A DNA stretch of 64,000 bases from Candidatus Magasanikiibacteriota bacterium (lineage in GTDB: Bacteria > Patescibacteriota > Patescibacteriia > Magasanikbacterales > UBA922), in assembly GCA_016193335.1 (NCBI GenBank), contig JACPSK010000001.1, positions 279,424 through 343,423 on the forward strand. Direction: 5' to 3'. Both the position numbers and the translations under genes were made by a program. The notes beneath the pieces are model-generated. The model was not told the DNA's origin. It ran no database searches and saw only the letters and a program-made list of their open reading frames with translations. Of the stretch, positions 505 to 54,228 are shown piece by piece (positions within the stretch are counted from its first letter, which is position 1; every line of letters begins with the position of its first letter).

Positions 505-1185
505 CTAGTTGAGATGTAGGATCTTCCGCAAAAGCGCCGGAACTTCTTTTTTGAAAAAAGACTTCACTTGGGGCCATGTAGCTTTGAAATAAATCTCCGG
601 TTCCGGGTCACTTTCCGCGTCCACAAAATACACCAAACTTTTCAGAATATGATGAAAATCGTGAGCAACAGACGGATACTGAATTTTTAATCTCTTAACG
701 GTATTTTCCAATGACTCAAGATGATTGGCGCACCAGTACAAATCAAAAAAATCTCTTTTCCTGCCACGCTGCGAGATAGCGACAATTTTCATGACCGCTA
801 TGTCCAGCGGATCCAAAATCCTTACTGTACCATGCCAGTGTGGTTTTTGTTTGGGAACAAAAAAGGGATAAGCGATAAAGCTAACCTTGGCTTTGAACAG
901 CTCACCGTAGATGGTATTTTCATCCTCGACTTGTATTGTCCAATCAGGGTTATCCAAAAATTTTGATAATAATCTCTTCATGTCAAAACTCTTTTTTTCA
1001 GTAAAAAAATCCAAATCAACAGATCTTCTATTCCCCGAATGGAGCGCAAGAGCAGTGCCTCCGGCCAAGTACCATTTAGACTTTTTAAGCCAATCTTGCT
1101 TTGACAAAAAATCAAAAGCTTTTTTGGTTTCTTTTGGTAATGTTTCAAAATGAAATGCTGCTAGCTGTGTGTTAGTAACTGCCAT
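505..1185 (-). CDS. Nucleotidyltransferase toxin, AbiEii/AbiGii family (type IV TA / abortive infection)
   Basis: 226 aa. Motif KWYLAGGTALALHSGNRRSVDLDFF is the pol-beta-type NTase signature typical of the AbiEii/DUF1814 family. Overlaps the upstream small ORF by 25 nt. Confidence 0.65.
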   Translation of the reverse strand: MAVTNTQLAAFHFETLPKETKKAFDFLSKQDWLKKSKWYLAGGTALALHSGNRRSVDLDFFTEKKSFDMKRLLSKFLDNPDWTIQVEDENTIYGELFKAKVSFIAYPFFVPKQKPHWHGTVRILDPLDIAVMKIVAISQRGRKRDFFDLYWCANHLESLENTVKRLKIQYPSVAHDFHHILKSLVYFVDAESDPEPEIYFKATWPQVKSFFKKEVPALLRKILHLN

Positions 1186-32730: not shown

Positions 32731-32759
32731 AATGAAAATTTTTAATTTATAATTTATAA

Positions 32760-32874
32760 TTTTTAAACAATTTTTATTCTCTTAATTTCTAATGAGTGAG
32801 CCCACACGGTACCTTTCGGACAAGGATATTTTGTGTAGAGGATAAAAATTACATCATTGGAAATTGTTTAAAAA
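32760..32874 (-). mobile_element. MITE-like element, copy L (14-bp TIRs tttttaaacaattt / aaattgtttaaaaa), inverted relative to copy R
   Basis: ~93-95% identical to the reverse complement of 37286-37400, with perfect terminal inverted repeats. Sits between the hisS start and the lepB stop. Confidence 0.5.
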
Positions 32875-32881
32875 TTAAAAA

Positions 32882-33481
32882 TTACAAATTGTATTCCGGA
32901 AGATTGCCGAATGAAGTGAGACGACTGAATGGCCAGCCTCTGAACACGACTCTCCCAACGATATCATTCACAGAAATAGGGCCGAAACGACGAGAATCAT
33001 AGCTCGCGTCTCTGTTGTCGCCAAGTACAAAGTACTGATCCGGACCCAAGGTAATCGAAACTGAACCGGGGGTTTGTTCTTCGAGATACGATTCTTGGAT
33101 AATAACACCCTGCGGGTATTCATTGTTATAAACCACAACTTTGTTCCCCTCCACTTTTATCCGTTCTCCGGGCAAACCTATGATACGCTTCAGATAATTG
33201 TCCGAAGCCACGGGCGCTCTGAAGACAATGATTTCTCCCCGCTCCGGCGCGCGGAAACGATAGCTGATTTCGTCTATGATCAAATAATCACGTTCATAAA
33301 AAGTGGGTTCCATCGATTGTCCTTTTACATAAAAGGGCTTGAACAAAAAGTAGCGTATAAGAACGATGGTAACGCCGGCGAGCAAAGTTACTTTGATGAG
33401 CTCCAAAAAAAAGAGCCCCAATTTATTCAGAAAACCGCGCTCCGTAATATTCACTTGTTCGCGATCATCTTCTTTTTTCAT
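32882..33481 (-). CDS. lepB: Signal peptidase I
   Basis: 199 aa. N-terminal TM, Ser box GQSMEPTF, GDNRDASYDSRRFGPI box. Confidence 0.85.
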   Translation of the reverse strand: MKKEDDREQVNITERGFLNKLGLFFLELIKVTLLAGVTIVLIRYFLFKPFYVKGQSMEPTFYERDYLIIDEISYRFRAPERGEIIVFRAPVASDNYLKRIIGLPGERIKVEGNKVVVYNNEYPQGVIIQESYLEEQTPGSVSITLGPDQYFVLGDNRDASYDSRRFGPISVNDIVGRVVFRGWPFSRLTSFGNLPEYNL

Positions 33482-34750: not shown

Positions 34751-34883
34751 TTTTTAAACAATTTTAATGCTTAATTTGAAATTAATTTTTGTCAGATTGA
34801 AAATATTCTCCAGTATACTTGAAAGGTTTCAATCTTCTCTGCCTGATTATTATTACATTCCCTCATTAAAAATTGTTTAAAAA
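34751..34883 (+). mobile_element. MITE-like element, third copy (same 14-bp TIRs, divergent interior)
   Basis: Starts tttttaaacaatttt and ends aaaattgtttaaaaattataaattgtaa, as in copies L and R. Interior differs. Confidence 0.4.
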
Positions 34884-34902
34884 TTATAAATTGTAATTTT
34901 AA

Positions 34903-37238: not shown

Positions 37239-37285
37239 ACTCTATGGGGATGAGAAAACACTAATTTCTAATTTTAAATTTATGA

Positions 37286-37400
37286 TTTTTAAACAATTTC
37301 CAATGATATAATTTTTATCCTCTACACAAAATACCTTTGCCCGAAAGATACCGTGTGGGCTCATTCATTAGAAATTAAGAGAATAAAAATTGTTTAAAAA
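37286..37400 (+). mobile_element. MITE-like element, copy R (14-bp TIRs). Inverted partner of 32760-32874
   Basis: Internal ~85 bp (ccaatgatataatttttatcctctacacaaaatacctttgcccgaaagataccgtgtgggctcattcattag...) is ~93-95% identical to the reverse complement of copy L. Confidence 0.5.
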
Positions 37401-37432
37401 TTATAAATTGTAAATTAAAAATTCTCATCTTC

Positions 37433-43958: not shown

Positions 43959-45206
43959 ATGGACAGAAAACGCCTTGTCTTTGCCCTCATATTCGCCGTC
44001 ATCAGCATACTGCTCGGTTATGCCATTTATAGGGTTTTCTTTAAAAAAATTCCGGCAGAAAAACCATTGCAGACCGGCATAACAGACACAAGCGGAACTT
44101 TCCCTGCCATAGAAAGCGGCGGCCCAAAAGAAGGAAGCATCGGTCCCACAGGATTGCCCATAAGTGACACAAAAATCACTCCGACCGGACAGGAAACCGG
44201 CGAAAGCCAGCTCCGTCTGCCACGCACGGCGAGCGGAGAAGAACCGCGTCTTAAAAAAGTAGTGGAAGCCGAGGTCTTGAGCCCCTCCCCCACCAAAAAT
44301 GGCGGAGCGAAATTTTACAACCAAGAAGATGGAAAATTCTACCGCCTCAATCCCGATGGCAGCATGACACCTCTCAGCGATAAAGTATTTTTTAATGTTT
44401 CCAAAGCCACCTGGTCGCCGTCCAACAATGAAAGTATCATCGAATATCCGGATGGTGCGAACATATACTACAATTTTGACACCGGACGCCAAGTGAGCCT
44501 CCCCAAACACTGGGAAGAATTCAGTTTTTCCCCTCAAGGAGAAAAAGTGGCTGCCAAAAGCATGGGTCTTTCTCCGGACAACCGATGGCTCATCACATCA
44601 AACCCGGACAGTTCTGAAATCAAACTGGTGGAACCTATGGGAAAAAACGCGGACAAAGTTACGGTTGATTGGTCTCCAAACAAGCAAATCGTAGCCCTGT
44701 CCAGAACAGGAGATTCTCTCGGATCAGATAGACAAGAAGTGCTCCTCGTGGGCCAAAATAAAGAAAATTTCAAATCCATCGTCGTGGAAGGCAGAGGCCT
44801 AAAGACCGCCTGGTCCGCGAGCGGCGGCAAATTGCTCCACAGCGTGTACAACGCGAGAAACGATTTTAAACCTGAGCTCTGGATCGTGAATGCGGAAGGA
44901 GACAACATCGGGTCAAACCGAAAACTTTTAAACGTAAGCACTTGGGCAGATAAATGCGCCATGCCGGATGAACGCTTTGCTTATTGCGGCGTACCGACCA
45001 CTTTGCAAACCGGAGCGGGCTTCGCGCCGGATCTTGCCAACGACACGCCGGATTTGCTTTATAAAATAGACACCGTAACTGGCATAAAAACGCAGATTCC
45101 TCTTGAAGGTTTTCACGTTATAAACAAAATCATCATATCCCCCGACGCCAAGACTCTTTATTTCACGGGTAAAAATGAAACAGGCTTAAATCAGGTAAAA
45201 TTATAG
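43959..45206 (+). CDS. Membrane-anchored TolB-like (PD40/WD40-like beta-propeller) protein
   Basis: 415 aa. N-terminal TM. Repeated W/FSP..... propeller blades (WSPSNNESIIEY, FSPQGEKVAA, WSPNKQIVAL). Confidence 0.5.
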   Translation: MDRKRLVFALIFAVISILLGYAIYRVFFKKIPAEKPLQTGITDTSGTFPAIESGGPKEGSIGPTGLPISDTKITPTGQETGESQLRLPRTASGEEPRLKKVVEAEVLSPSPTKNGGAKFYNQEDGKFYRLNPDGSMTPLSDKVFFNVSKATWSPSNNESIIEYPDGANIYYNFDTGRQVSLPKHWEEFSFSPQGEKVAAKSMGLSPDNRWLITSNPDSSEIKLVEPMGKNADKVTVDWSPNKQIVALSRTGDSLGSDRQEVLLVGQNKENFKSIVVEGRGLKTAWSASGGKLLHSVYNARNDFKPELWIVNAEGDNIGSNRKLLNVSTWADKCAMPDERFAYCGVPTTLQTGAGFAPDLANDTPDLLYKIDTVTGIKTQIPLEGFHVINKIIISPDAKTLYFTGKNETGLNQVKL

Positions 45207-45352
45207 CTGTGAAATCTCTCTTTAATAAAACAGAAATGTTGAGGAGCAGGTCTAATACTCGGTTCGGCCTTCGCTCCAGTTCGCCATTTTAAGAATGTCA
45301 ATAAACCAACGGTGAAACCCCATAACCCAAAGCCACTGCGTTACAAAGCAAT

Positions 45353-46003
45353 ATGTTAAAAACTCGTCACCTCATGTTTATTTTCATACCTGCCACGCTT
45401 TTGGCCGCCGTTTTTCTTTTCGTCCGCGTGGTGCAATATCAGCCGCTCTTTCCAAAAGAAGACAAAACCGAAAATCCGGAAAGCAAAACGCTTTCAGTGC
45501 CCATATTTCCCGATGACCCAATTCTGGGAAACAAAAAAGCCGGCACAGGAATTGTGGCTTTCGAAGATTTTGGCTGTGAAGCTTGCAAAGAGCAAACGGC
45601 TATTTTTGAAGAATTGGTAAACAAATATCCTGGCGCTATAAGAATTATCTGGAAAGGCTTGCCGGTAACACAATTCCCCTACCCCACCGAGCTCGCCGAG
45701 AGCTACGGATATTGCGCGAATAAACAAGGAATGTTCGATATTTTCAAAACCTATGCTTTCAGTAACAGCGGCAATCTTTCACAAACAAGTCTTGATATCA
45801 TTTCAGAGGAAATAAAACTGAACAAAGAAAAACTGACCGAGTGTCTGGAATCTCCCGCTACCGCAAACCACATAACGCAGACAAAACAAATTGCCCGCAT
45901 ACTCAATATTCAGGCAGTACCGGCCATATTTGTGAATGGAAAGCAAATTGATCCGCCAAAGAGTCTGGAAGGCTGGGAGACGCTTTTGGGGTTATCACAA
46001 TAA
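45353..46003 (+). CDS. DsbA-like thiol:disulfide oxidoreductase (thioredoxin fold, CxxC)
   Basis: 216 aa. N-terminal TM, active site FGCEACKEQ, DsbA-type helical insertion. Confidence 0.7.
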   Translation: MLKTRHLMFIFIPATLLAAVFLFVRVVQYQPLFPKEDKTENPESKTLSVPIFPDDPILGNKKAGTGIVAFEDFGCEACKEQTAIFEELVNKYPGAIRIIWKGLPVTQFPYPTELAESYGYCANKQGMFDIFKTYAFSNSGNLSQTSLDIISEEIKLNKEKLTECLESPATANHITQTKQIARILNIQAVPAIFVNGKQIDPPKSLEGWETLLGLSQ

Positions 46004-46009
46004 GTATCT

Positions 46010-48448
46010 ATGAAATTTTTGCCGTTTTCCTTCAAATCCGCGATCATACCCATGATCGGACTTCTTTTTTTATGTCCTTTTCAAACTTCTGCCGCCGAAG
46101 TGCCCAATATTACCGTAGTAAGCTACAACATTCAGGGTGGCTGTTCGGCGCCCATGGATGAAGGCAGCTATAATTTGGACAAAACAATAGCAGAGCTGCA
46201 ATCACTAAACGCCGACATAATTTTTCTCCAAGAAGTACAAGGACAGTCTGTTTCAAAAGGAACCTGCAAAAAATCATTCAACAAAAATCAATATAGCACC
46301 ATAGCTTCCGAGCTTAAGATGAAGTCTTATTATTCCCAGCGTCTTCAAATTTTAGCGCGCAGTGATTTTAAGCTGACAGATACAAAATCAGTTCAATACA
46401 ATGCCCAAAAATCTTCAGGAACCAAACGTTATTACGCAAGAGGGCAAGTCGAGACCTCCGATGGCTTCAAATTTATTGTATACAATACCCACGCGGAACG
46501 TTTCGATCCTCTCCAACGCATAGCCCAAATAAAACAGTTGGCAGCGGACGCTGCTCAAGAAACATTCCCTGTCATAGTCGGGGGAGATTTCAATGAATGT
46601 TCAGACGAACCATTCAAAATATTCGGCCTGTCATTCAATGCCGCGCTCGGATCCACGGCCACCTTTACCCCGCTTCAGCCCAAAAGCTCAAAAACCTTGC
46701 AAGATCTCATAAAAAGTTCAAGCTGTAAATTGACGGTCTCAAATATCAATGAACGGCTTGATTATCTCTTCGGCAGCAAGACACATTGGGTTTTGACAAA
46801 CGCGACTGTGGTCACTGGTGCTGGCGCCACTTCGGATCATTATCCCATTACCACCACCTTCCAAGCCACTGAAGGAGCCATTGCTCTCTCCGGACTTGGT
46901 ACTCCCCCTCCCGCGGCACCCGCCTCGCCACCCGCCCCCCAACCCGGCAAAGGCAACTTTGGCAAAGAATGCGACACCGACGCGGATTGTCCGGTGGGGA
47001 ATGAATGCGAACAGAGCATACATCCGAATGGAAAAGAATACTGTGTTTGTGAAGAGGCGGCGCATTGCGTGGAAGAATATGGCGGAGACGTAAAAGAATG
47101 GACCTGTTCCAATGGGAGTAATGTGTCGTATGAGTTGAATTATTGTTTAAAAGGAAGCACGCCCTATTATCCGATCGGAGAAAATCCGGCGGCAAAGAAT
47201 GTAACGAGTGATGTGGGGCGAGCTTTTGATGGGGCGGCCCTCTCTGAGAGTGAAATACAAAAACTCCTCAAGAAGCCGGTGCCCAAGATCAGGATTCCGG
47301 GGTTGGAGTTTAGTGAGATTGATATAGAAAGACTGCGCGGAGATGGCGTGGACGCCTCGTATCTCTATATTCCTTTTTTAGGAGAATATATCGCGGCTGT
47401 GTACAAATTTAGCGTTATCCTTATTACCGTATTATCTACCGCGCTTCTCATTCTCGGAGGCCTGCAATGGACTCTCAAAGGAGGAGGCACAGGAAATGAA
47501 GAGGTGAAAAAACGCATTACTGGCAGTATCATAGGTCTTCTTCTTTCTCTGGGTTCTTACACAGTCCTTTATCTCGTTAATCCGAATTTACTGGAATTTA
47601 AGGCTCTAAGGGTTCAATTTATAGCTCCTGAACCCTATGCCGACTATGAGGAATTGCCGGAAACCGCTGATTTCGGATATGCGCAAGGATCAGGGCCAGT
47701 CAGCGCCGAAGCGCAAAAAACCATAGGCGGCCTAATCGGCGGGCCGAATACCCTTACGGCTTGCTCCAAAGAAGCGGCTCAAAACGCCTCCCAAAAACTA
47801 CATGACTTAAAAATTTGCACAGGGCCCTGCCATTGTGGCTATACCGCAACTAGATTCTTATCCTATATAGGATGCGGCAACAAAACGCTCAGCGGAGGCG
47901 CGAATATAAACGTTCCGTCTCTGGAACAGCAAGGATGGATTTCAGCAAAAATCAGCCAAGAAAACTACAAATCCCTCCCGGTAGGGCTCTTATGGTTTCC
48001 CGGTCACAATGGCGTTTCCATAGGCGACGGAAAACTATTCGAATCAACTCCGGGCAAAGCCTTCCAACGAGTGGCGGAGGGGACCTCTTGTCCCATCGAA
48101 ATTACCGATGTCCCGGCCGGTTCCGGCATCTGCGATGCCTGTTCAAAACTACAAGGGCACGGTCCGGCGTCCAAATTATACTTTCGGCCGCGCGATCCAC
48201 GAGCCTGCCATAGTAACCAAGGTTGGTCTCAAGGAACCCATGTAAAAGCATTCAGACTTGTGGTTTTCCCTGCTGATACTGCCCCAAACAAACCGCCGCT
48301 CGGTTGCTGCAAAATAAATAATAAAGATACTTACTTTTCTTCTGAACTTTTTTGCAAAGAATTCAGTATCAGATGGAAAAATAAGGCTTACGTCAATCTT
48401 CCGTATACTTGGGATTCTTCCATAACCGACAAAAATCTGTGTAAATAA
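46010..48448 (+). CDS. Modular secreted enzyme: signal peptide, EEP-family nuclease/phosphatase, Pro-rich linker, Cys-rich module, two-helix membrane hairpin, C-terminal papain-like (CHAP/NlpC-like) putative peptidoglycan hydrolase
   Basis: 812 aa. EEP motifs VVSYNIQGG, IFLQEVQ, GGDFNE, TSDHYPI. Cys module GKGNFGKECDTDADCPVGNECEQ...CVCEE..HCVEEYGG. Hairpin IAAVYKFSVILITVLSTALLILGGLQWTLKGGGTGNEEVKKRITGSIIGLLLSLGSY. C-terminal CHCGYTATRF...FPGHNGVSIGDG (Cys/His). Confidence 0.75.
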   Translation: MKFLPFSFKSAIIPMIGLLFLCPFQTSAAEVPNITVVSYNIQGGCSAPMDEGSYNLDKTIAELQSLNADIIFLQEVQGQSVSKGTCKKSFNKNQYSTIASELKMKSYYSQRLQILARSDFKLTDTKSVQYNAQKSSGTKRYYARGQVETSDGFKFIVYNTHAERFDPLQRIAQIKQLAADAAQETFPVIVGGDFNECSDEPFKIFGLSFNAALGSTATFTPLQPKSSKTLQDLIKSSSCKLTVSNINERLDYLFGSKTHWVLTNATVVTGAGATSDHYPITTTFQATEGAIALSGLGTPPPAAPASPPAPQPGKGNFGKECDTDADCPVGNECEQSIHPNGKEYCVCEEAAHCVEEYGGDVKEWTCSNGSNVSYELNYCLKGSTPYYPIGENPAAKNVTSDVGRAFDGAALSESEIQKLLKKPVPKIRIPGLEFSEIDIERLRGDGVDASYLYIPFLGEYIAAVYKFSVILITVLSTALLILGGLQWTLKGGGTGNEEVKKRITGSIIGLLLSLGSYTVLYLVNPNLLEFKALRVQFIAPEPYADYEELPETADFGYAQGSGPVSAEAQKTIGGLIGGPNTLTACSKEAAQNASQKLHDLKICTGPCHCGYTATRFLSYIGCGNKTLSGGANINVPSLEQQGWISAKISQENYKSLPVGLLWFPGHNGVSIGDGKLFESTPGKAFQRVAEGTSCPIEITDVPAGSGICDACSKLQGHGPASKLYFRPRDPRACHSNQGWSQGTHVKAFRLVVFPADTAPNKPPLGCCKINNKDTYFSSELFCKEFSIRWKNKAYVNLPYTWDSSITDKNLCK

Positions 48449-48463
48449 AATACGCGCCAGTCT

Positions 48464-49546
48464 TTGTCCCTGCGCTTAATTTTTATGAAACTGAATCATC
48501 TTTTATTGATTTTCGGTATTTTACTGCCTTTTTTTCTTTTTTTGACGGTAAACCACACTTTATTATCAAAAAAAAATGACATAAAATCCGTATTATTGGA
48601 AAAACCGCGAAGGATAGGATCTGACACTGTGTACTTTCCCTTTTTCGACAAAAAAGAAAACACAGTCACCTATTGGGCGTCAAAAGAAAACGCGTTAAAA
48701 ACGATCTCCTTATCAAATCCGGGGAAAACACTAAAAAAACAAAACACAAGCATCGGGGGCGACACTACAGACATACTGTGGGCACCGAACGGGATCGCGT
48801 TCGCGGAAAAAAACAACGGCGGTTTACGCGTGCGCTCTCTCGATAAAGAAGCGGCGTACCATATTGACGGAGACATAGAAAGCGCTGCATGGTCCCCGGA
48901 CAGCAAAAAACTGCTATACCAAAACTTTTCGGATAGAAACGCCACGAAAAGTTCCCTGTACATCTTCAACAGAGAAACAGGCTCAAGCAGCCTATACCTG
49001 GAACTGGGCGAGCCGGAGGCGTCTTTTTCTGAGGGCATCGTTTTACTTTCTTGGCCAGAAGAAAAAAAAATACTTTATGCTCAAGCAAGCACAGACCAAA
49101 GTCTTCCGGCTTGGTGGAACACGGATAAAGAAGCTCCTGAGAATGAATTATTAAGCGGAATACGCTTTTTGGAATTGTCGCCAGACAAAAAAAACTTGCT
49201 CACTGAAGTGGAAAAACCGGGCAATCAACAGTATACTGTGTATGCCGTACAAAATATGTTAACCGGCGAAGAGGCCCCCACGGATATATCGCCGCAAGAA
49301 TCCTTATGCGCTTGGAAAACGAACACCGCTTTGTTGTGCGTGAGCGCGAAAATAAGTTCTGACGTCGTCTATATCGGGAGTGTCAATCTTCAAGATGGTG
49401 AATACACCCTGCATGGAGCAGTCCGTTCTGAGGACATGGATATCAATCAAAATTCAGAATACATGCATATAGTGGGGAACAATTTCTTTTATATTTCGTC
49501 TTTTGACCAAGGACTATATTCTATAAAGTTGAAAAATACACAATAA
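48464..49546 (+). CDS. Membrane-anchored beta-propeller (TolB/PD40-like) protein, paralogous in style to 43959-45206
   Basis: 360 aa. N-terminal TM. WAPNGIAFAE and WSPDSKKLLYQ blade motifs. Confidence 0.5.
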   Translation: MSLRLIFMKLNHLLLIFGILLPFFLFLTVNHTLLSKKNDIKSVLLEKPRRIGSDTVYFPFFDKKENTVTYWASKENALKTISLSNPGKTLKKQNTSIGGDTTDILWAPNGIAFAEKNNGGLRVRSLDKEAAYHIDGDIESAAWSPDSKKLLYQNFSDRNATKSSLYIFNRETGSSSLYLELGEPEASFSEGIVLLSWPEEKKILYAQASTDQSLPAWWNTDKEAPENELLSGIRFLELSPDKKNLLTEVEKPGNQQYTVYAVQNMLTGEEAPTDISPQESLCAWKTNTALLCVSAKISSDVVYIGSVNLQDGEYTLHGAVRSEDMDINQNSEYMHIVGNNFFYISSFDQGLYSIKLKNTQ

Positions 49547-49549
49547 CAT

Positions 49550-51913
49550 ATGGAAAGGCGAAAAAAAATGACACAAATAACAAAAAACATTACAGACATA
49601 ATAGTGGCCGGCTCTTTTTTGCTATTTCTTTTCTTGCCCCAGGCAAGCCAAGCCGCCCCAAAACTCCTCAACACGGTCGGTTCAGTGGAACACTATACAT
49701 ACAGTTCCTCTTGCTCGGGAACAGGAACACAAAATCTCATCGTCAATACAACGCAGAGTTCTTACTCCAACATCTACTTTTTCTTCCACGGTCAAACCTC
49801 CCCCAGCCCAAAAGGATTCTGCGAAGGCGCTTTTCAACTTTGCTCTCGGGCAAAAGAACAGCCGTCTTCTCTCTTTGTGGGCGTTTCCATGAAAGGATCC
49901 GGCAACCAATGGGTTTCCAAAGTTGATTTTCCCTGCCTTTACAATGAAGCGAAAACACAGCTTGACGAACTTGGCATTCCCATGCCGAGCAGTGTAAACA
50001 TGGCCGCTTTCAGCTATGGCGGCAGAGCCCTTCAAAATATATTCAATCAAGGGAAACAGCAGGGAAACGTCAAAAGCACGCTTTTTTTCGATGCCTGTTT
50101 CGGAAGCTGGTGTTCTGACGTGGCAAAAAAATCTTCTTCAATCCGCGGGTCACAATATATGTACGCTTCTTCAGCCACGGACAATGACAACGGCAAAAAA
50201 AATCAAGAAGCCGCCGCTGCCGCCATCAAAGCCTCAAGCGATGCCACGCGTTATGTGCATGTGCCGGTGAACAACCATGGTCTCATACCCAACATATGTT
50301 TTTGGGATCATATAAACAGTGATCTCTGCCAGGGAAAGGGAGTCTTAAAATCTTCTTCCGATCTTCCGCAAACTCCGGCCGAGCCAGTCCAAAACCCTGC
50401 CGGCAAAGGCAACTTCGGCAAAGAATGCGACACCGACGCGGATTGTCCGGTAGGGAATGAATGCGAACAGAGCATACATCCGAATGGCAAGGAATACTGT
50501 GTTTGTGAAGAAGACGCTCATTGTGTGGAAGAATATGGCGGAGATCCAAAAGAATGGACCTGTTCCAATGGGAGCAATGCGTCGTATGAGTTGAATTATT
50601 GTTTAAAAGGAAGCACGCCTTATTATCCGATCGGAGAAAATCCGGCGGCAAAGAACGCAACGAGTGACGTAGGGCGAGCTTTTGATGGGGCGGCCCTCTC
50701 TGAGAGTGAAATACAAAAACTCCTCAAGAAGCCGGTGCCCAAGATCAGGATTCCGGGGTTGGAGTTTAGTGAGATCAGCGTGGAGGGATTAAGCTCAATG
50801 GACGCGGGAGGAAAAACTTATCTCAATATCCCCTTTCTCGGACAATACATCGCCAGCTTATACAAATATCTCATTATTCTTATTACCGTTGTTTCGACGG
50901 TATTCTTGATCATTGGCGGCATGCAGTGGATTTTGGGCGGTAGCGGATCAGGAAAAGAAGAAATAAAACAACGCATGATAAACAGCCTCATAGGCCTTAT
51001 TGTAGCACTCAGCTCTTATGTAATATTGCATACCATCAACCCTGATCTGGTGCAATTCAAAGCTCTAAAAGTCTTATACGCCCAACCAAACGAATTCTTC
51101 GCGACTCCTCCTGAAAATGATGAAGATAATCCGAATCTTCCGGCCGACACCACTATAGCCGCTAAACCAAATGCCCAGGATGAGGTGACCTCAGACCTCT
51201 TTATGGAAACCGGTATAAACGGTCCGAAAGCGAACGGTTGGCAAATCTGGCAGTCCTTTTCGGAAAATCAAAAAAAAGAAGTCCTGCCTCATCTGTTCAA
51301 ACTTATAGCGGCATGTCCTGGCGAAGGCAATCTTACGAATATCACCGGAATCCCGGGATGGAACGGCATGAAAATCAATTCCCAGGCCTTGGAACCTTTC
51401 AGAAAAGCCAATAAACTGGCCTCTGAATTGGGTTTTGTATTGTATCCCGGAGGAGTGTACAGACCCTCAGCCACACAACTTAGGCTGTGGAATACGGGTG
51501 TCGCGGCCCGCTATCAAAGAGGCCTGAGCGGATGGGAAAATAATCAAGGCAAAATCGCGAGGCCCAGCTGCAAATCCCCTCATCTGAGCGGAGGAGCGGT
51601 GGATGTGAACATGAAATATATCGCTTCCGGCAAAAAACTCGCGGCCAGCGATCCCTTCAAAATAACCAAATCCAATTACGCGACTAAATTTTTGGGGGAT
51701 CCGTATAAAATTATTCTGGAATATATTTTCAATCAAGCCGGATGGCTGCGGCTCTGTTCCGAACATTGGCATTTTGAATATGGTGTGACTGTTTCTTACG
51801 GTAGATGGGACAAGACATCACGTTGCTGGATAGGCAATGAAACATATGATCAACCCATTCCGGACAGCATGAAAGCGGAAGTAAACAAGATCGTTGGCAA
51901 AAATATTTTATAA
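49550..51913 (+). CDS. Modular secreted enzyme: signal peptide, alpha/beta-hydrolase (lipase/esterase-like), Cys-rich module, two-helix membrane hairpin, C-terminal M15 (VanY-like) peptidoglycan peptidase
   Basis: 787 aa. FFFHGQ / AAFSYGG (G-x-S-x-G) / NNHGLIP. Cys module ~96% nt-identical to that in 46010-48448. Hairpin IASLYKYLIILITVVSTVFLIIGGMQWILGGSGSGKEEIKQRMINSLIGLIVALSSY. M15 motifs SPHLSGGAVDV and SEHWHFEY. Confidence 0.75.
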   Translation: MERRKKMTQITKNITDIIVAGSFLLFLFLPQASQAAPKLLNTVGSVEHYTYSSSCSGTGTQNLIVNTTQSSYSNIYFFFHGQTSPSPKGFCEGAFQLCSRAKEQPSSLFVGVSMKGSGNQWVSKVDFPCLYNEAKTQLDELGIPMPSSVNMAAFSYGGRALQNIFNQGKQQGNVKSTLFFDACFGSWCSDVAKKSSSIRGSQYMYASSATDNDNGKKNQEAAAAAIKASSDATRYVHVPVNNHGLIPNICFWDHINSDLCQGKGVLKSSSDLPQTPAEPVQNPAGKGNFGKECDTDADCPVGNECEQSIHPNGKEYCVCEEDAHCVEEYGGDPKEWTCSNGSNASYELNYCLKGSTPYYPIGENPAAKNATSDVGRAFDGAALSESEIQKLLKKPVPKIRIPGLEFSEISVEGLSSMDAGGKTYLNIPFLGQYIASLYKYLIILITVVSTVFLIIGGMQWILGGSGSGKEEIKQRMINSLIGLIVALSSYVILHTINPDLVQFKALKVLYAQPNEFFATPPENDEDNPNLPADTTIAAKPNAQDEVTSDLFMETGINGPKANGWQIWQSFSENQKKEVLPHLFKLIAACPGEGNLTNITGIPGWNGMKINSQALEPFRKANKLASELGFVLYPGGVYRPSATQLRLWNTGVAARYQRGLSGWENNQGKIARPSCKSPHLSGGAVDVNMKYIASGKKLAASDPFKITKSNYATKFLGDPYKIILEYIFNQAGWLRLCSEHWHFEYGVTVSYGRWDKTSRCWIGNETYDQPIPDSMKAEVNKIVGKNIL

Positions 51914-51916
51914 GCT

Positions 51917-53263
51917 ATGCCGGAACCAAAAACACTCTACGTTTGCACGCATTGTGACGCGCAATTCCAAAAATGGATAGGCCGTTGTTTGGAATGCGGA
52001 ACTTGGGGTTCTTTAGAAGAAGTTTCTGCCGCGCGTATGAAACAAGAAAAAGAAAACGCGGCGATCCCCGCAAAAACGCAAGAACTTTCAGAACTAAAAA
52101 CAACTCAGACCGAACGAATCCCAAGCAAGATCAGAGAATTGGATCGAGTGCTCGGAGACGGCATAGTGCCGGGAAGCCTGATACTCCTTGGCGGAGAGCC
52201 GGGGATCGGCAAATCCACGCTCGCTTTGCAATTGGCCGCCATTGTGGACAAAACGCTGTACATTTCCGGCGAGGAATCGGCCGGTCAAATCGCAATGCGG
52301 GCTCGCCGAATTTTAAGTGAAAAATTTTCAAAAAATATCAAAGTCCTCAACGAAACAAACGTGGAAACTATTGTGTCCACTCTCAAGGTCGAATCCGCGA
52401 ACTTCGCGATCATTGATTCCATTCAAACACTCTATTCAGAAGAGGTGAGCGGAGGCGCCGGATCTCCAAATCAAATCCGCGCCTGCACGGTAAAGCTGCT
52501 CGACTGCGCGAAACAACATACCATAGCCATTTGTATCATTGGACATGTTACCAAAGATGGAGCCGTGGCCGGGCCAAAAACCTTGGAGCATTTGGTAGAC
52601 ACGGTTTTGTATCTCGAAGGAGAACCTCATCATTCGTACCGGGTCCTGCGCGCGGTAAAAAATCGTTTTGGTTCCACCGATGAAGTGGGTATTTTTGAAA
52701 TGGACGAAACCGGTCTCCGCGAAGTTCCCAATCCTTCTGAACATTTTCTCTCCGAACGTGCCGAAAAAACTTCAGGCTCTGTCATTACCTGTCTTATGGA
52801 AGGTACAAGACCTTTGCTCGTGGAAATTCAAGCTTTGGTCCAAAAAACAAGTTTCGGATACCCGGTGCGCAAAGCCAGCGGTTTTGATCTGAACCGTCTC
52901 CATGTTTTGGTGGCAGTCTTGCAGAAACGTGCTGGGCTTAATCTGGCTCAATATGATATTCACATCAATGTGGTGGGCGGACTCAAGGCGGAAGAGCCTT
53001 CCGCTGATCTCTCAATTTGTCTGGCCATAGCAAGCTCATTCAAAGACAAAATTCTTGGGCTAGATTTGGTGGTCTTTGGCGAAGTGGGACTTGGCGGGGA
53101 AATACGCGCGGTTCGGCACACGGAAAAACGTCTAAAAGAATGCGAACAGCTCGGCATGAAACGGGTCATAATGGCTCGCAACAAAAAGATAAAAGAAAAA
53201 AATACCAACAAACTTCATATTATCGGCGTTGGGAATATTGAGGAGCTGATACAGCACGCCTAA
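51917..53263 (+). CDS. radA: DNA repair protein RadA/Sms
   Basis: 448 aa. N-terminal Zn ribbon CTHCDAQFQKWIGRCLECGTWG, RecA-like Walker A GGEPGIGKSTLALQ, KNRFG motif, Lon-like C-terminal domain. Confidence 0.9.
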   Translation: MPEPKTLYVCTHCDAQFQKWIGRCLECGTWGSLEEVSAARMKQEKENAAIPAKTQELSELKTTQTERIPSKIRELDRVLGDGIVPGSLILLGGEPGIGKSTLALQLAAIVDKTLYISGEESAGQIAMRARRILSEKFSKNIKVLNETNVETIVSTLKVESANFAIIDSIQTLYSEEVSGGAGSPNQIRACTVKLLDCAKQHTIAICIIGHVTKDGAVAGPKTLEHLVDTVLYLEGEPHHSYRVLRAVKNRFGSTDEVGIFEMDETGLREVPNPSEHFLSERAEKTSGSVITCLMEGTRPLLVEIQALVQKTSFGYPVRKASGFDLNRLHVLVAVLQKRAGLNLAQYDIHINVVGGLKAEEPSADLSICLAIASSFKDKILGLDLVVFGEVGLGGEIRAVRHTEKRLKECEQLGMKRVIMARNKKIKEKNTNKLHIIGVGNIEELIQHA

Positions 53264-53362
53264 ACTTTCAGTTTCAAGAAGAGTGAGATAATTTGTGTTG
53301 TATGTACCTCAAAGCGTCTGCAGCACCCCTTTTTTCCCCCCTCCACGCTGTGTTCTCTATAT

Positions 53363-53457
53363 TTAAACCCCCTCTTACATCTCCCCCTTAGTAAAGGGGG
53401 AGAGACTGCGCAGCCACGATCCTCTCCTTTACTAAGGAGGGGATATAAGGGGTGGTT
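53363..53457 (+). repeat. Palindromic repeat units (C5/G5-armed hairpin tctcccccttagtaaagggggaga plus ~44-bp unit ccacgatcctctcctttactaaggaggggatataaggggtggtt), left flank of a GC-rich insert
   Basis: Both units recur at 54078-54206 (ccacgatcccctccttttcaaggaggggatgtaaggggtggtt; tctccccctttaaaagggggaga). Seen in sequence. Confidence 0.5.
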
Positions 53458-53652
53458 GAATGGTCTGACCTAGTCCGCAAACAAAAAAACCGACTCTTCA
53501 TCGGAATATAATTAGGATTGGGGTGGCCTTGCGCGCGTACAGCTCTATCACCCCCACTGCGATGAAAAGCATGTACAAACACACGCGGAGCTTGCCCAAA
53601 GCTCAACGCGGGCGCGCAAGGCTATAGAAAGGTGGGAGCCCGGCCTGCCGGG

Positions 53653-53940
53653 CTAGAGGTTGGCGATGTTCTTCCGGGTCGGGTCTCCGCGGACCTGGCG
53701 GCAGCCCGTCGGCAGTCGCCGCTCGGAGCCGAGCAGACCCTCCCGGCTCTGGTGGGGGCGATGGGAGACGCCCTCCACCTCGATCCCGAGCCCGAGGGCC
53801 TGCTCGATCCCCTGCTCGAACTCGGCCGTGACCTTACCGTTCCGGTACTGAACGATGAAGGCCACTCCCTCGCTGATCGCGACGGCCACCGTACCAGTCC
53901 CGCCACGGGGCGGGAAAGGACGCTTCTTGATATCCTTCAA
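53653..53940 (-). CDS. Small ORF (95 aa) inside a ~65% GC insert, function unknown
   Basis: GC3-rich codon pattern coherent in this frame only (MKDIKKRPFPPRGGTGTVAVAISEGVAFIVQYRNGKVTAEFEQGIEQALGLGIEVEG...). No family assigned. Confidence 0.3.
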   Translation of the reverse strand: MKDIKKRPFPPRGGTGTVAVAISEGVAFIVQYRNGKVTAEFEQGIEQALGLGIEVEGVSHRPHQSREGLLGSERRLPTGCRQVRGDPTRKNIANL

Positions 53941-54077: not shown

Positions 54078-54206
54078 TCTCCCTCCTTTACCAAGGAGAG
54101 GGACATTGCATCCACGATCCCCTCCTTTTCAAGGAGGGGATGTAAGGGGTGGTTATGGATTTCTCCGATAACCCCCCCTTGCATCTCCCCCTTTAAAAGG
54201 GGGAGA
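54078..54206 (+). repeat. Palindromic repeat units, right flank of the GC-rich insert (hairpin, ~44-bp unit, hairpin)
   Basis: See 53363-53457. Hairpins tctccctcctttaccaaggagaggga and tctccccctttaaaagggggaga bracket the second copy of the ~44-bp unit. Confidence 0.5.
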
Positions 54207-54228
54207 GAAGTGATATTTATGGATTTGC

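What the first reader, a model, noticed from the sequence alone, without database searches (positions are those of the whole stretch)
46946..47335. ~390-bp near-identical (~96% nt) segment shared by two otherwise unrelated genes: recent gene conversion or cassette exchange
Nucleotides ~46946-47335 and ~50402-50790 encode the Cys-rich module GKGNFGKECDTDADCPVGNECEQSIHPNGKEYCVCEE(A/D)AHCVEEYGGD.KEWTCSNGSN.SYELNYCLKGSTPYYPIGENPAAKN.TSDVGRAFDGAALSESEIQKLLKKPVPKIRIPGLEFSEI. The two copies differ at only a handful of positions. Flanking domains share no detectable similarity, and the downstream hairpin module is only ~50% identical at the protein level. The module GC content is higher than its surroundings. 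Even the antisense shadow ORFs match (46840..47112 versus 50283..50660). Sharp identity boundaries imply recent recombination that homogenises or shuffles this module between paralogs, which is the hallmark of polymorphic or variable surface-protein loci.
Basis: seen in the sequence. Interest (0 to 1): 0.6.

Follow-up and report, generated by a model that had tools for sequence, protein, structure and literature searches.

The report
Gene-conversion patch shared by tandem paralogs
Two neighbouring genes for membrane-anchored cell-wall-degrading enzymes in an uncultured Candidatus Magasanikbacteria (CPR) genome share a 376-base, 95%-identical stretch because one copy was recently pasted over the other by recombination; this is a real and clean example of a well-known process.

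Summary
Window 46944-47319 and 50400-50775 are 376 nt, 94.9% identical, ungapped and in frame, with sharp edges. Per-run assemblies from eight sequencing runs reproduce all four junctions at 100% identity, so it is not an assembly artefact.

The two genes are not unrelated. Both belong to one CPR family: signal peptide, optional N-terminal enzyme, optional 8-Cys domain, a 'KPxPKIxIPGLxFS' motif, a VirB2/T4SS-pilin-like transmembrane hairpin, then a variable C-terminal cell-wall hydrolase. One or two such genes sit between dsbA and radA in 14 related genomes, each with a different domain combination.

- **Shared patch:** synonymous divergence is 0.2.
- **Adjacent hairpin:** synonymous sites are saturated (pS 0.72) and protein identity is 53%, no higher than to family members from other organisms.
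- **Family background:** pairs with similar hairpin identity have modules 35±6% identical; this pair has 96%.

The best explanation is non-allelic recombination (gene conversion or segment transfer) between tandem paralogs. The direction is unresolved, with a slight lean towards B to A. I found no diversity-generating retroelement, silent cassettes, RNA-structure constraint or foreign composition. The process is known and the protein family is uncharacterised, so interest is moderate.

The parts
46944..47319 (+). Module copy A, inside gene A. It comprises the 8-Cys extracytoplasmic domain (~46944-47164), a linker, and the conserved pre-hairpin motif KPVPKIRIPGLEFSEI (to 47319).
   Evidence: BLASTN: 376 nt, 94.9%, no gaps. 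Codon-level comparison. Cys-domain and RIPG profile HMM hits. AlphaFold2 pLDDT 92-96 over the Cys domain.
50400..50775 (+). Module copy B, inside gene B, in register with copy A at an offset of 3456 nt.
   Evidence: Logan contig L018 reproduces 50581-53394 at 100% identity, including five B-specific alleles.
47216..47319 (+). A 104-nt sub-tract with no differences between the copies (last mismatch at 47215, next at 47320). It encodes RAFDGAALSESEIQKLLKKPVPKIRIPGLEFSEI. It may mark a second, more recent conversion event.
   Evidence: Mismatch positions and permutation test: P=0.035 over all sites, 0.13 over third codon positions only, so weak. dS is 0.04 here against 0.31 in the 5' part.
46010..48448 (+). 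Gene A, 812 aa (alternative start at 46052 gives 798 aa, P0003). Order: signal peptide, EEP (endonuclease/exonuclease/phosphatase) domain, Pro-rich linker, Cys module, TM hairpin, Cys-rich C-terminal domain of unknown family.
   Evidence: PF03372, 54.7 bits against a cutoff of 24.5. The C-terminal domain is 48% identical to the C-termini of P0010/P0039 and L003 g1. No Pfam or PDB sequence match for the C-terminal domain.
49550..51913 (+). Gene B, 787 aa (alternative start at 49568 gives 781 aa, P0004). Order: signal peptide, N-terminal domain of unknown family ('N(B)'), Cys module, TM hairpin, VanY/M15 D,D-peptidase domain.
   Evidence: PF02557, 26.0 bits against a cutoff of 25. PF18895 T4SS_pilin, 24.1 bits against a cutoff of 26.6. 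N(B) is 22-50% identical to the N-termini of P0010/12/13/39 and of L009, L014 and L003 genes.
47360..47626 (+). TM hairpin of gene A: two helices with a short basic loop, followed by the NPNLLEF motif.
   Evidence: Against hairpin B: 62% nt identity, pS 0.72, dN 0.33. Hairpin profile HMM 99 bits. Predicted as two long helices with pLDDT >90.
50819..51085 (+). TM hairpin of gene B.
   Evidence: T4SS_pilin match at residues 434-493.
45353..46003 (+). DsbA-like thiol-disulfide oxidoreductase immediately upstream of gene A. It is a conserved neighbour of the family.
   Evidence: PF13462, E=1.5e-21. It lies upstream of the family gene(s) in the 12 related loci whose contig reaches that far.
43959..45206 (+). 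Membrane-anchored beta-propeller-like protein ('prop1'), a conserved left flank of the locus.
   Evidence: 44-64% identical tblastn matches at the same position in 11 related loci. Only weak Pfam hits.
48464..49546 (+). PD40/propeller-like membrane protein lying between genes A and B.
   Evidence: Weak PD40/propeller Pfam hits. A weak counterpart lies between the two family genes of L003. Logan contigs L024-L028 join hairpin A, C-term A, this gene and N(B) at 100% identity.
51917..53263 (+). radA, the conserved right flank of the locus.
   Evidence: Pfam hits typical of RadA: Zn-ribbon, AAA_25, Lon_C/ChlI. 52-66% identical and directly downstream of the family gene(s) in 13 of 14 loci.

Best explanation
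**What the genes are.** Genes A and B are tandem paralogs, 3.4 kb apart on the same strand, in a Candidatus Magasanikbacteria (CPR/Patescibacteria) genome. They belong to a family of extracytoplasmic, membrane-anchored, modular cell-envelope hydrolases. The family plan is:
- a signal peptide;
- an optional N-terminal enzyme;
- an optional 8-cysteine domain;
- the motif KPxPKIxIPGLxFS;
- a VirB2/T4SS-pilin-like two-helix membrane hairpin;
- the motif NPxLVxF;
- a variable C-terminal hydrolase.

**What happened.** The 376-nt patch exists because a segment was copied from one paralog into the other by non-allelic recombination, either gene conversion or a segment transfer. This happened long after the rest of the two genes had diverged. 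The segment comprises the Cys domain, the linker and the pre-hairpin motif. Its 3' end resolved inside sequence that all family members share, the IPGLxFS region. Its 5' end lies in the proline-rich linker that follows the N-terminal enzyme domain. Since the event the copies have accumulated about 0.2 synonymous and 0.02 non-synonymous changes per site under purifying selection. The last 104 nt may have been re-homogenised later.

**Shown.** The tract, its boundaries, the divergence discontinuity, the conflict with family relationships, and its reality in independent assemblies.

**Inferred.**
- The mechanism: homologous pairing of the conserved core.
- The direction, leaning B to A. Both known EEP-type relatives lack the Cys domain, while most N(B)-type relatives carry it.
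- The topology: both enzyme domains outside the cell, with the hairpin loop cytoplasmic.
- That the neighbouring DsbA oxidises these Cys-rich exported proteins.
For: **1. Tract and edges.** 376 nt, 19 mismatches, no gaps, E=9e-169, and both boundaries sharp.

**2. Divergence discontinuity within the same reading frames.** The module has dS 0.215 and dN 0.022. The hairpin 40 nt downstream has pS 0.72 (saturated) and dN 0.33.

**3. Conflict with family relationships.**
- The A and B modules are 95-98% identical to each other and at most 49% identical to any of about 108 other cluster representatives.
- The A and B hairpins are 52-53% identical. That is no closer than to foreign members such as P0031 (54%) and P0001 (53%).
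- Across 3655 family pairs the module is normally less conserved than the hairpin.
- Among the 1391 pairs with 45-60% hairpin identity, module identity is 35±6%.
- The A-B excess of module over hairpin identity is +0.43; the next largest is +0.17.

**4. Coding-type substitution pattern.** Thirteen of the 17 differing codons are synonymous, and only the sense frame is conserved.

**5. The module is an optional unit.**
- EEP-type relatives (P0097, L004 gene 1) lack the Cys domain.
- N(B)-VanY relatives (L014 gene 1, L009 gene 2, L012) also lack it.
- All of them keep the pre-hairpin motif.

**6. Control.** The syntenic tandem pair in L003 is uniformly diverged, at 56% aa and at most 77% nt, with no near-identical patch.

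**7. A second case.** In L015 the tandem paralogs share at least 109 nt at 96.3%. All four differences are synonymous, and the patch ends exactly at the junction between the core and the C-terminal domain.

**8. Not an artefact.**
- Logan contigs from eight sequencing runs match the window at 100%, apart from one mismatch in L033.
- They cover EEP into module A (to 46990 or 47031), module A into hairpin A (from 47290), N(B) into module B (to 50446), and module B into hairpin B (from 50581).
- Contig ends fall in register between the two copies, as expected where an assembly graph branches at a true repeat.
Against: - **No sister genome.** Nothing close enough is available to polarise the event, so direction and number of events are not established.
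- **Closest relatives lack the Cys domain.** This holds for the closest relatives of both genes. A double acquisition from a third source therefore cannot be excluded. Nor can a recent partial duplication followed by replacement of the flanks.
- **Not very young.** At dS 0.2 the event is 'recent' only relative to the saturated flanks.
- **Second event weakly supported.** The 104-nt identical run gives P=0.035, or 0.13 on third codon positions alone.
- **Interior not independently covered.** The middle of each copy (about 47032-47289 and 50447-50580) is supported only by the MAG assembly, not by the short per-run contigs.
- **Rest of the genome not searched directly.** The remainder of the 165-kb contig and the other contigs could not be searched for further copies. 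The only indirect evidence is that just two representatives more than 50% identical to the module exist in a library built from 15 billion proteins.
Confidence: 0.8

Rival explanations
1. Remnant of a recent duplication. A single ancestral gene, or its 5' half, was duplicated recently, and the flanks were then replaced by recombination with other family members. On this reading the patch is the only part left from the duplication rather than a tract pasted into an old paralog.
For: Domain combinations are reshuffled across genomes. The N(B) domain of gene B is joined to the C-terminal domain type of gene A in P0010, P0039 and L003 gene 1. In L015 the patch ends exactly at the junction between the core and the C-terminal domain, as a C-terminal replacement would leave it.
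Against: It needs at least three or four breakpoints where one conversion tract needs two. Tandem pairs in related genomes (L003, L008, L013) are old, uniformly diverged paralogs. The hairpins of A and B belong to the same subgroup as the EEP-type relative P0097, which does not suggest recent import of one of them. This differs from the main explanation only in which segments moved.
Confidence: 0.12
2. Independent acquisition. Both genes received the same Cys module from a third donor, either another paralog elsewhere in the genome or horizontal transfer.
For: The closest relatives of both A (P0097, L004 g1) and B (L014 g1, L009 g2) lack the Cys domain.
Against: No third protein with a module more than 50% identical appears among representatives of 15 billion proteins. 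Module composition is native, GC 0.49 against 0.467. The window holds no mobile-element genes. Two insertions with boundaries identical to the nucleotide are unlikely.
Confidence: 0.04
3. Assembly or binning artefact, where a chimeric or duplicated repeat was created by the metagenome assembler.
For: The sequence is a MAG contig, and 104 nt of perfect identity exceeds common k-mer sizes.
Against: Logan contigs from eight sequencing runs reproduce all four junctions at 100% identity, and two of them carry copy-specific alleles. With two direct repeats on one molecule, the assembled order is the only linear path that uses the segment running from hairpin A to N(B). The gene order prop1-dsbA-gene-propeller-gene-radA is conserved in L003. 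Both ORFs are intact, and the 19 differences follow a coding pattern.
Confidence: 0.02
4. Nucleotide-level function or a programmed diversification system. Candidates are a diversity-generating retroelement template/variable repeat pair, an embedded RNA element, or a phase or antigenic-variation cassette system.
For: CPR genomes often carry diversity-generating retroelements (my own knowledge, not tested here). The repeat lies in exported, surface-located proteins.
Against: No reverse transcriptase, recombinase or transposase is present in 64 kb. Both copies are coding, and mismatches are mainly third-position and not specific to adenines. The RNA fold of the identical stretch is no better than shuffled sequence, z=0.21. 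Rfam reports only tRNAs. There are only two copies and no silent cassettes. Eight sequencing runs show no variation.
Confidence: 0.02

Closest known systems
Ectopic (non-allelic) gene conversion between bacterial paralogs, e.g. tufA/tufB in Salmonella and the segmental mosaics in opa, pil and msp families
   Same: A short tract of near identity is embedded in otherwise diverged paralogs of one genome. It has sharp boundaries, a discontinuity in synonymous divergence, and relationships that conflict with the flanks.
   Different: Here the tract spans an optional protein domain plus a conserved juxtamembrane motif in multidomain enzymes whose terminal domains are non-homologous. There are no silent donor cassettes and no evidence of ongoing variation. 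The organism is an uncultured CPR bacterium.
VirB2-like pilins and pilin arrays of Patescibacteria (PF18895/PF04956; Microb Genom 2025, PMC12102498)
   Same: The hairpin matches PF18895 in 44 of 89 family members. [quoted passage not shown] Paralogs in those arrays are highly diverged, averaging 25% identity.
   Different: These are 450-850 aa proteins in which the hairpin is internal and flanked by enzymes. The passages I searched in that paper mention only a VirB3-VirB4 fusion, not a pilin-hydrolase one. The locus sits between dsbA and radA, and no virB4 was found in the window. Gene B scores below Pfam's gathering cutoff, and gene A has no Pfam hit at E<=0.01.
Membrane-anchored multidomain peptidoglycan hydrolases of monoderm type IV secretion systems (VirB1 analogues PrgK, TraG of pIP501, TrsG)
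   Same: Membrane-anchored proteins that combine two cell-wall-degrading domains, as the literature cited describes for SLT plus CHAP. Family members here carry SLT, Amidase_2, M15/VanY, NlpC/P60, M23 or C39-like domains.
   Different: The anchor is a pilin-like hairpin rather than a single N-terminal helix. N-terminal partners include EEP and GDSL hydrolases. There is no T4SS gene context and no sequence homology was tested or found.
Polymorphic toxin / Rhs / CDI-type loci, with a constant region and exchangeable C-terminal domains
   Same: A conserved core is followed by highly variable C-terminal enzymatic domains. Identity breaks exactly at the junction between the core and the C-terminal domain (L015). 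Domain combinations differ in every genome.
   Different: No immunity gene or orphan C-terminal cassettes were seen. The downstream genes are a propeller protein and radA. The locus is a conserved chromosomal site present in all relatives, which fits a housekeeping role. The variable domains are ordinary cell-wall hydrolases.

Membership tests
Gene-conversion / non-allelic recombination tract | A contiguous tract of much higher nucleotide identity than its flanks, with abrupt boundaries, between paralogs in one genome | tested here: met
   376 nt at 94.9%. Flanks are unalignable on the 5' side and 62% identical on the 3' side. The boundaries are located to within a few nucleotides.
Gene-conversion / non-allelic recombination tract | Synonymous divergence is discontinuous across the boundary, so the pattern is not explained by protein-level constraint | tested here: met
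   dS 0.215 against pS 0.72 (saturated) within the same ORFs.
Gene-conversion / non-allelic recombination tract | Relationships inferred from the tract conflict with those from the flanks, relative to outgroups | tested here: met
   Modules: A-B 96%, others at most 49%. Hairpins: A-B 53%, others up to 54%. The pair is an outlier among 3655 family pairs.
Gene-conversion / non-allelic recombination tract | Donor and recipient polarised with orthologues from sister genomes | not testable with these tools
   No close relative was found in the genome or metagenome collections. All per-run contigs come from the same clone.
Pfam T4SS_pilin (PF18895), VirB2-like pilin | Score at or above Pfam's gathering threshold (26.6 bits) | tested here: not met
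   Gene B scores 24.1 bits, and gene A has no hit at E<=0.01. Of 89 family members, 44 match at E<=1e-3. The two-helix hairpin is predicted with pLDDT >90. Foldseek returns only generic helical hairpins. This is a resemblance, not demonstrated membership.
VanY / LAS-type D,D-peptidase (PF02557), gene B C-terminus | Pfam gathering score, plus the metal-ligand motifs H-x6-D and H-x-H | tested here: met
   26.0 bits against a cutoff of 25. 'SPHLSGGAVD' and 'EHWHFE' are present and invariant in the alignment with L014, L008 and L006 homologues. The identification of these as ligand motifs rests on my own knowledge.
Endonuclease/exonuclease/phosphatase (PF03372), gene A N-terminus | Pfam gathering score over the full-length domain | tested here: met
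   54.7 bits against a cutoff of 24.5, covering profile positions 1-225 of 225. The substrate (nucleic acid or phospholipid) was not determined.
Diversity-generating retroelement (template/variable repeat pair) | A nearby reverse transcriptase, a non-coding template repeat, and mismatches confined to template adenines | tested here: not met
   No reverse transcriptase among the Pfam-scanned ORFs of the window. Both copies are coding. The mismatches are mixed transitions and transversions, mostly at third codon positions.
Antigenic/phase-variation cassette system (pilE/pilS-like) | Multiple silent donor cassettes and variation of the expressed copy within populations | tested here: not met
   There are only two copies, both within full-length genes. 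No third representative exists. Eight sequencing runs give identical sequence.
Polymorphic toxin system | A variable C-terminal toxin domain followed by a cognate immunity gene or orphan modules | tested here: inconclusive
   The C-termini are variable. The downstream genes are a propeller protein and radA, and no small immunity-like ORFs were examined in detail.

The most novel reading that the evidence does not exclude
The conserved core (Cys module, IPGL motif and VirB2-like hairpin) may serve as a recombination handle. On this reading, CPR bacteria use it to shuffle N- and C-terminal lytic enzymes at a dedicated dsbA-radA locus. These enzymes include PG amidases, D,D-peptidases, lytic transglycosylases, GDSL esterases and an EEP nuclease or phospholipase. 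The resulting pilin-anchored hydrolases would be the missing VirB1-type wall-breaching, or host-wall-attacking, component of the patescibacterial pilus or type IV secretion apparatus.
Probability: 0.15. Interest if true: 0.7.

Novelty: new member of a known kind. Interest (0 to 1): 0.4.

Why it matters
**As a process.** This is an ordinary but unusually clean case of segmental gene conversion. It shows that homologous recombination between paralogs operates in a reduced CPR genome.

**As biology.** The finding exposes an uncharacterised, widespread CPR family. An internal pilin-like membrane hairpin carries two extracytoplasmic enzyme domains, and a fixed chromosomal site (prop1-dsbA-[genes]-radA) holds a different enzyme combination in every genome examined.

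These organisms are thought to live on other cells. Published surveys note many VirB2-like pilins but few VirB1-type wall hydrolases in them (PMC12102498). The family is therefore a concrete candidate for wall remodelling or for attack on the host envelope.

The conversion tracts mark where the modules are exchanged.

Tried and rejected
**Scans and searches that gave nothing**
- Single-module scans of genome contigs and metagenome contigs found no relatives.
- The 89-sequence alignment was too diverse to derive a search pattern. The 8-sequence alignment worked.
- The word-indexed protein search with module plus hairpin returned only two distant hits and missed the proteins themselves.
- The same search with the EEP domain found nothing. 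EEP-type relatives are therefore known only from P0097 and L004.
- Gene A's C-terminal domain and gene B's N-terminal domain have no Pfam hit even at E<=1, and no PDB sequence hit. Their functions remain unknown.

**Structure**
- The full-length AlphaFold2 model of gene A was poor outside the core, with mean pLDDT 52.8.
- The core-only model was good, pLDDT 85.6.
- Foldseek against the PDB gave nothing below E=1 for either model.

**Explanations considered and rejected**
- RNA-structure constraint: z=0.21.
- Diversity-generating retroelement or mobile element: no reverse transcriptase, transposase or integrase.
- Foreign origin by composition: rejected.
- Ancient two-gene-unit duplication: the two propeller genes give only weak repeat-level similarity, E=4e-4, so this is inconclusive.
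- Two-event hypothesis for the 104-nt identical run: only weakly supported.

**Other**
- Donor direction could not be resolved from module or linker similarity.
- A look-up of P0111 to reach the 687-kb Magasanikbacteria contig failed.
Full report
**1. The observation**

A BLASTN comparison of the window with itself gives one strong non-trivial match. Positions 46944-47319 align with 50400-50775 over 376 nt, with 19 mismatches and no gaps (94.9%, E=9e-169) (also found by the repeat finder).

Both copies lie in frame in long ORFs on the + strand: gene A (46010-48448, 812 aa) and gene B (49550-51913, 787 aa). Differences affect 17 codons; 13 are synonymous and 4 change the amino acid (A/D, V/P, V/A, V/A).

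The sense frame is the only one of six with no stop codons. It also has the fewest amino-acid differences, 4 against 6-17 in the others. The pair that actually corresponds is 46848-47195 and 50283-50660.

Identity in 30-nt windows rises from 0.13-0.47 to 0.87-1.0 at 46944. It falls again after 47319. A 40-nt unalignable loop and a one-codon indel follow. Identity then runs at only 0.5-0.77 through the membrane hairpin and disappears beyond about 47630.

GC is 0.49 in the module against 0.467 for the genes and 0.46 for the window.

**2. It is not an assembly artefact**

The window comes from contig CAYOIR010000003.1 (165 kb) of MAG GCA_964404105.1. I looked up neighbouring proteins (RadA, the intervening propeller protein and DsbA) in independent per-run Logan assemblies. 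This returned 17 short contigs from eight sequencing runs: SRR12113383, -384, -385, -424, -425, -426, -428 and SRR4343435. All align to the window at 100% identity, apart from one mismatch in L033.

They cover all four junctions:
- EEP domain into module A, up to 46990 (L030, L032, L033) or 47031 (L034, which reaches A-specific alleles).
- Module A into hairpin A, then the C-terminal domain of A, the propeller gene, N(B) and into module B: 47290-50446 (L024).
- Module B into hairpin B, VanY and radA, from 50581 with five B-specific alleles (L018), or from 50746 (L019).

Contig ends fall in register between the two copies: 46990+3456=50446 and 47290+3456=50746. This is what a de Bruijn graph with a short k-mer (about 31 nt, judging from the 30-nt overlaps) does at a true repeat. 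With two direct repeats, the assembled order is the only linear path that uses the segment from hairpin A to N(B). The same gene order occurs in a related genome, L003.

**3. What the two genes are**

Gene A has a signal peptide and an N-terminal endonuclease/exonuclease/phosphatase domain (PF03372, 54.7 bits). Gene B has a C-terminal VanY D,D-peptidase domain (PF02557, 26.0 bits against a cutoff of 25). It also has a sub-threshold match to the T4SS_pilin hairpin (PF18895, 24.1 against 26.6).

The N-terminal domain of B and the Cys-rich C-terminal domain of A match no Pfam family and no PDB sequence.

BLASTP between A and B aligns only residues 301-543 of A with 273-516 of B, at 73% identity. 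This figure blends a nearly identical module with a hairpin that is about 53% identical.

An exhaustive profile-free search with the 126-aa module gave 108 cluster representatives at E<=1e-3. The library was 1.84 billion representatives of 15 billion proteins. The two window proteins (P0003, P0004) are the only ones above 50% identity.

The alignment of 89 members shows one conserved core. It consists of:
- eight invariant or nearly invariant cysteines;
- a conserved Trp;
- the motif KPxPxIxIPGLxFS;
- a two-helix hydrophobic hairpin;
- the motif GSYxILYxINPxLVxF.

Pfam scans of the 89 members give:

| Pfam family | Members matching |
|---|---|
| T4SS_pilin | 44 |
| Amidase_2 | 14 |
| Peptidase_C39_2 | 11 |
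| Peptidase_M15_4 | 10 |
| VanY | 9 |
| SLT | 6 |
| GDSL lipase | 5 |
| NlpC/P60 | 2 |
| M23 | 2 |
| Glucosaminidase | 1 |
| EEP | 1 |

The two genes are therefore paralogs of one modular family, not unrelated genes.

A core-only AlphaFold2 model has mean pLDDT 85.6. It shows a compact α/β Cys domain (pLDDT 92-96) and two long helices (pLDDT >90), flanked by short paired strands. Foldseek finds no PDB fold below E=1.

From the signal peptides, the basic loop between the helices (KGGGTGNEEVKKRI) and the cysteine content, I infer that both enzyme domains are extracytoplasmic. I did not test this.

**4. Genomic context and organism**

A degenerate-pattern scan with an 8-sequence alignment retrieved 14 loci. 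They come from Candidatus Magasanikbacteria, Parcubacteria and 'Patescibacteria group' MAGs. Several are TPA MAGs labelled 'uncultured Gammaproteobacteria', probably mislabelled.

A 95-aa protein of the window is 100% identical to one annotated from a Candidatus Magasanikbacteria MAG.

tblastn with the window's proteins shows striking synteny. The order is a propeller protein, then DsbA, then one or two family genes, then RadA. It holds in every locus as far as the contig reaches.

The family genes differ in every genome:

| Locus | Gene(s) between dsbA and radA |
|---|---|
| Window | EEP-Cys-hairpin-C(A); N(B)-Cys-hairpin-VanY |
| L003 | N(B)-Cys-hairpin-C(A); N(B)-Cys-hairpin-other |
| L004 | EEP-hairpin-Amidase_2; GDSL-hairpin-unknown |
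| L005, L010 | Cys-hairpin-Amidase_2 |
| L006 | Cys-hairpin-VanY |
| L011 | Cys-hairpin-SLT-GDSL |
| L013 | hairpin-M15_4; hairpin-C39_2 |
| L014 | N(B)-hairpin-VanY; unknown-hairpin-unknown |
| L016 | GDSL-hairpin-SLT; hairpin-unknown |

A profile of the Cys domain finds it in only 7 of the 24 family ORFs in those loci. The IPGL motif and the hairpin are found in nearly all of them. The Cys domain is therefore an optional module.

Notably, the closest relatives of gene A by its EEP domain lack the Cys domain but keep the homologous pre-hairpin segment. These are P0097 (40% identity) and L004 gene 1 (44-46%). The same holds for the closest relatives of gene B by N(B) plus VanY: L014 gene 1, L009 gene 2 and L012.

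**5. Why recombination**

By Nei-Gojobori counting, the module has dS 0.215 and dN 0.022. The hairpin that starts 40 nt downstream in the same reading frames has pS 0.72 (saturated) and dN 0.33.

In the hairpin, A and B are 52-53% identical. That is no closer than either is to members from other organisms, such as P0031 (54%), P0001 (53%) and P0097 (48-54%). In the module they are 95-98% identical, and no other member exceeds 49%.

Across 3655 family pairs the module is normally less conserved than the hairpin (34% against 43%). For the 1391 pairs whose hairpins are 45-60% identical, module identity is 35±6%. The A-B pair is at 96%. Its excess of module over hairpin identity is +0.43, and the next largest is +0.17.

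Protein-level constraint cannot produce this, because synonymous sites are equally affected. An RNA-level constraint is not indicated either. The identical stretch folds no better than shuffled sequence (z=0.21). Rfam finds only tRNAs.

A diversity-generating retroelement is excluded:
- no reverse transcriptase, integrase or transposase appears in the window;
- both copies are coding;
- mismatches are not adenine-specific.

The tract is therefore a segment copied between the paralogs after the rest of the genes had diverged.

The 3' 40 codons of the tract (…RAFDGAALSESEIQKLLKKPVPKIRIPGLEFSEI) replace sequence that is homologous in all members. This would provide a pairing region. The 5' end lies in the Pro-rich linker directly after the N-terminal enzyme domains.

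The last 104 nt carry no differences, against 19 in the first 272 nt. This hints at a second, later event. A permutation test gives only P=0.035, or 0.13 on third positions alone.

**6. Direction and alternatives**

Both known EEP-type relatives lack the Cys domain. N(B)-type relatives mostly have it (L003 ×2, P0010, P0012, P0013, P0039), although L014, L009 and L012 do not. This leans towards transfer from B to A, with insertion of the Cys domain into A, but it is not decisive. Module similarity to outgroups (at most 44-49%) does not discriminate.

A variant reading treats the patch as the remnant of a recent partial duplication whose flanks were then replaced. It is less parsimonious. It fits the observed mix-and-match, since N(B) is joined to the C(A)-type domain in P0010, P0039 and L003 gene 1.

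Independent acquisition from a third donor is unlikely, because there is no third representative and the composition is native.

**7. Is it recurrent?**

Self-comparison of the 14 related loci gave mixed results.
- The L003 pair is uniformly diverged, at 56% aa and at most 77% nt.
- L008 and L013 show only moderate nucleotide similarity in the core.
- L015 has a patch of at least 109 nt at 96.3% between its two tandem family genes. All four differences are synonymous. It covers the second hairpin helix and ends exactly at the junction between the core and the C-terminal domain. Its 5' extent is cut by the contig end.

The conserved core has therefore been the substrate of recent recombination in at least two genomes, at different positions.

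**8. Comparison with what is known**

The process is classical ectopic gene conversion or segmental recombination between paralogs.

The hairpin resembles the VirB2-like pilins (PF18895) recently surveyed in Patescibacteria. [quoted passage not shown] Paralog identity within arrays is very low, averaging 25% with a maximum of 54%. [quoted passage not shown] The passages I searched in that paper mention only a VirB3-VirB4 fusion, not a pilin-hydrolase one. Two literature searches found no description of this family or of gene conversion in CPR.

Membership in PF18895 is not established for the window genes. Gene B is below the cutoff and gene A has no hit.

Resemblance to polymorphic-toxin loci is limited to a constant core with variable C-termini. 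No immunity genes or orphan cassettes were seen. The genomes compared are distant, with RadA about 60% identical. Eight sequencing runs of this organism are invariant. I therefore see no evidence of rapid, population-level variability.

**9. Verdict**

The premise of 'unrelated genes', the GC argument and the antisense-ORF argument are not.

I file it as a new instance of a known process in an uncharacterised CPR protein family. Interest is moderate (0.4), mostly because of the family and locus it exposes.

Noticed in passing
window 53600-53940 (flanks 53363-53460 and 54108-54208): A ~340-nt island of 70-72% GC sits in a 46% GC genome, between radA and the IMPDH gene. Its minus-strand ORF (53653-53940, 95 aa) has GC by codon position of 0.69/0.47/0.85, which is typical of a genuine high-GC gene. 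The ORF has no Pfam or Rfam match. A 100% identical protein is annotated in a Candidatus Magasanikbacteria MAG (HYY51_01480). Related hairpin-forming repeats flank the island. It may be a horizontally acquired fragment or a small mobile insertion.
   Followed up: partly
window 32732-32890 and 37270-37428 (plus 34867-34896): A 159-nt intergenic repeat is present in inverted orientation at 92% identity, with a 30-nt exact piece at a third site. The copies lie next to the hisS/signal-peptidase genes and next to tRNA-Val/phosphoglucomutase.
   Followed up: no
L015 1-109 and 1187-1295: This is a second case of a near-identical patch between tandem family paralogs in another CPR MAG. It is 96.3% identical and all four differences are synonymous. 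It covers the second hairpin helix and ends exactly where the C-terminal domains begin. The contig ends inside the patch.
   Followed up: partly
window 43959-53263; loci L003-L016: The gene order propeller protein, DsbA, one or two hairpin-family genes, RadA is conserved across 14 Magasanikbacteria/Parcubacteria loci. The enzyme-domain combination of the family genes differs in every genome.
   Followed up: yes
window 16201-28272 (-) and 28265-30433 (-): A 4023-aa protein and an adjacent 722-aa protein each begin with a T4SS_pilin-like hairpin (PF18895, 27.3 and 34.4 bits). The hairpin is followed by Ig-like, lectin and TIG domains. The same anchor is therefore used by giant surface proteins in this genome.
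   Followed up: no
L003, L006, L009, L014, L015, L016 (record titles): Several TPA MAG records titled 'uncultured Gammaproteobacteria bacterium' carry this CPR-specific syntenic locus. The MAG that contains the window belongs to a similar accession series. The taxonomic labels are probably wrong.
   Followed up: no
window 505-1185 (-): An AbiEii-type nucleotidyltransferase toxin gene (type IV toxin-antitoxin, PF08843) lies near the start of the window, next to tRNA-Asp.
   Followed up: no
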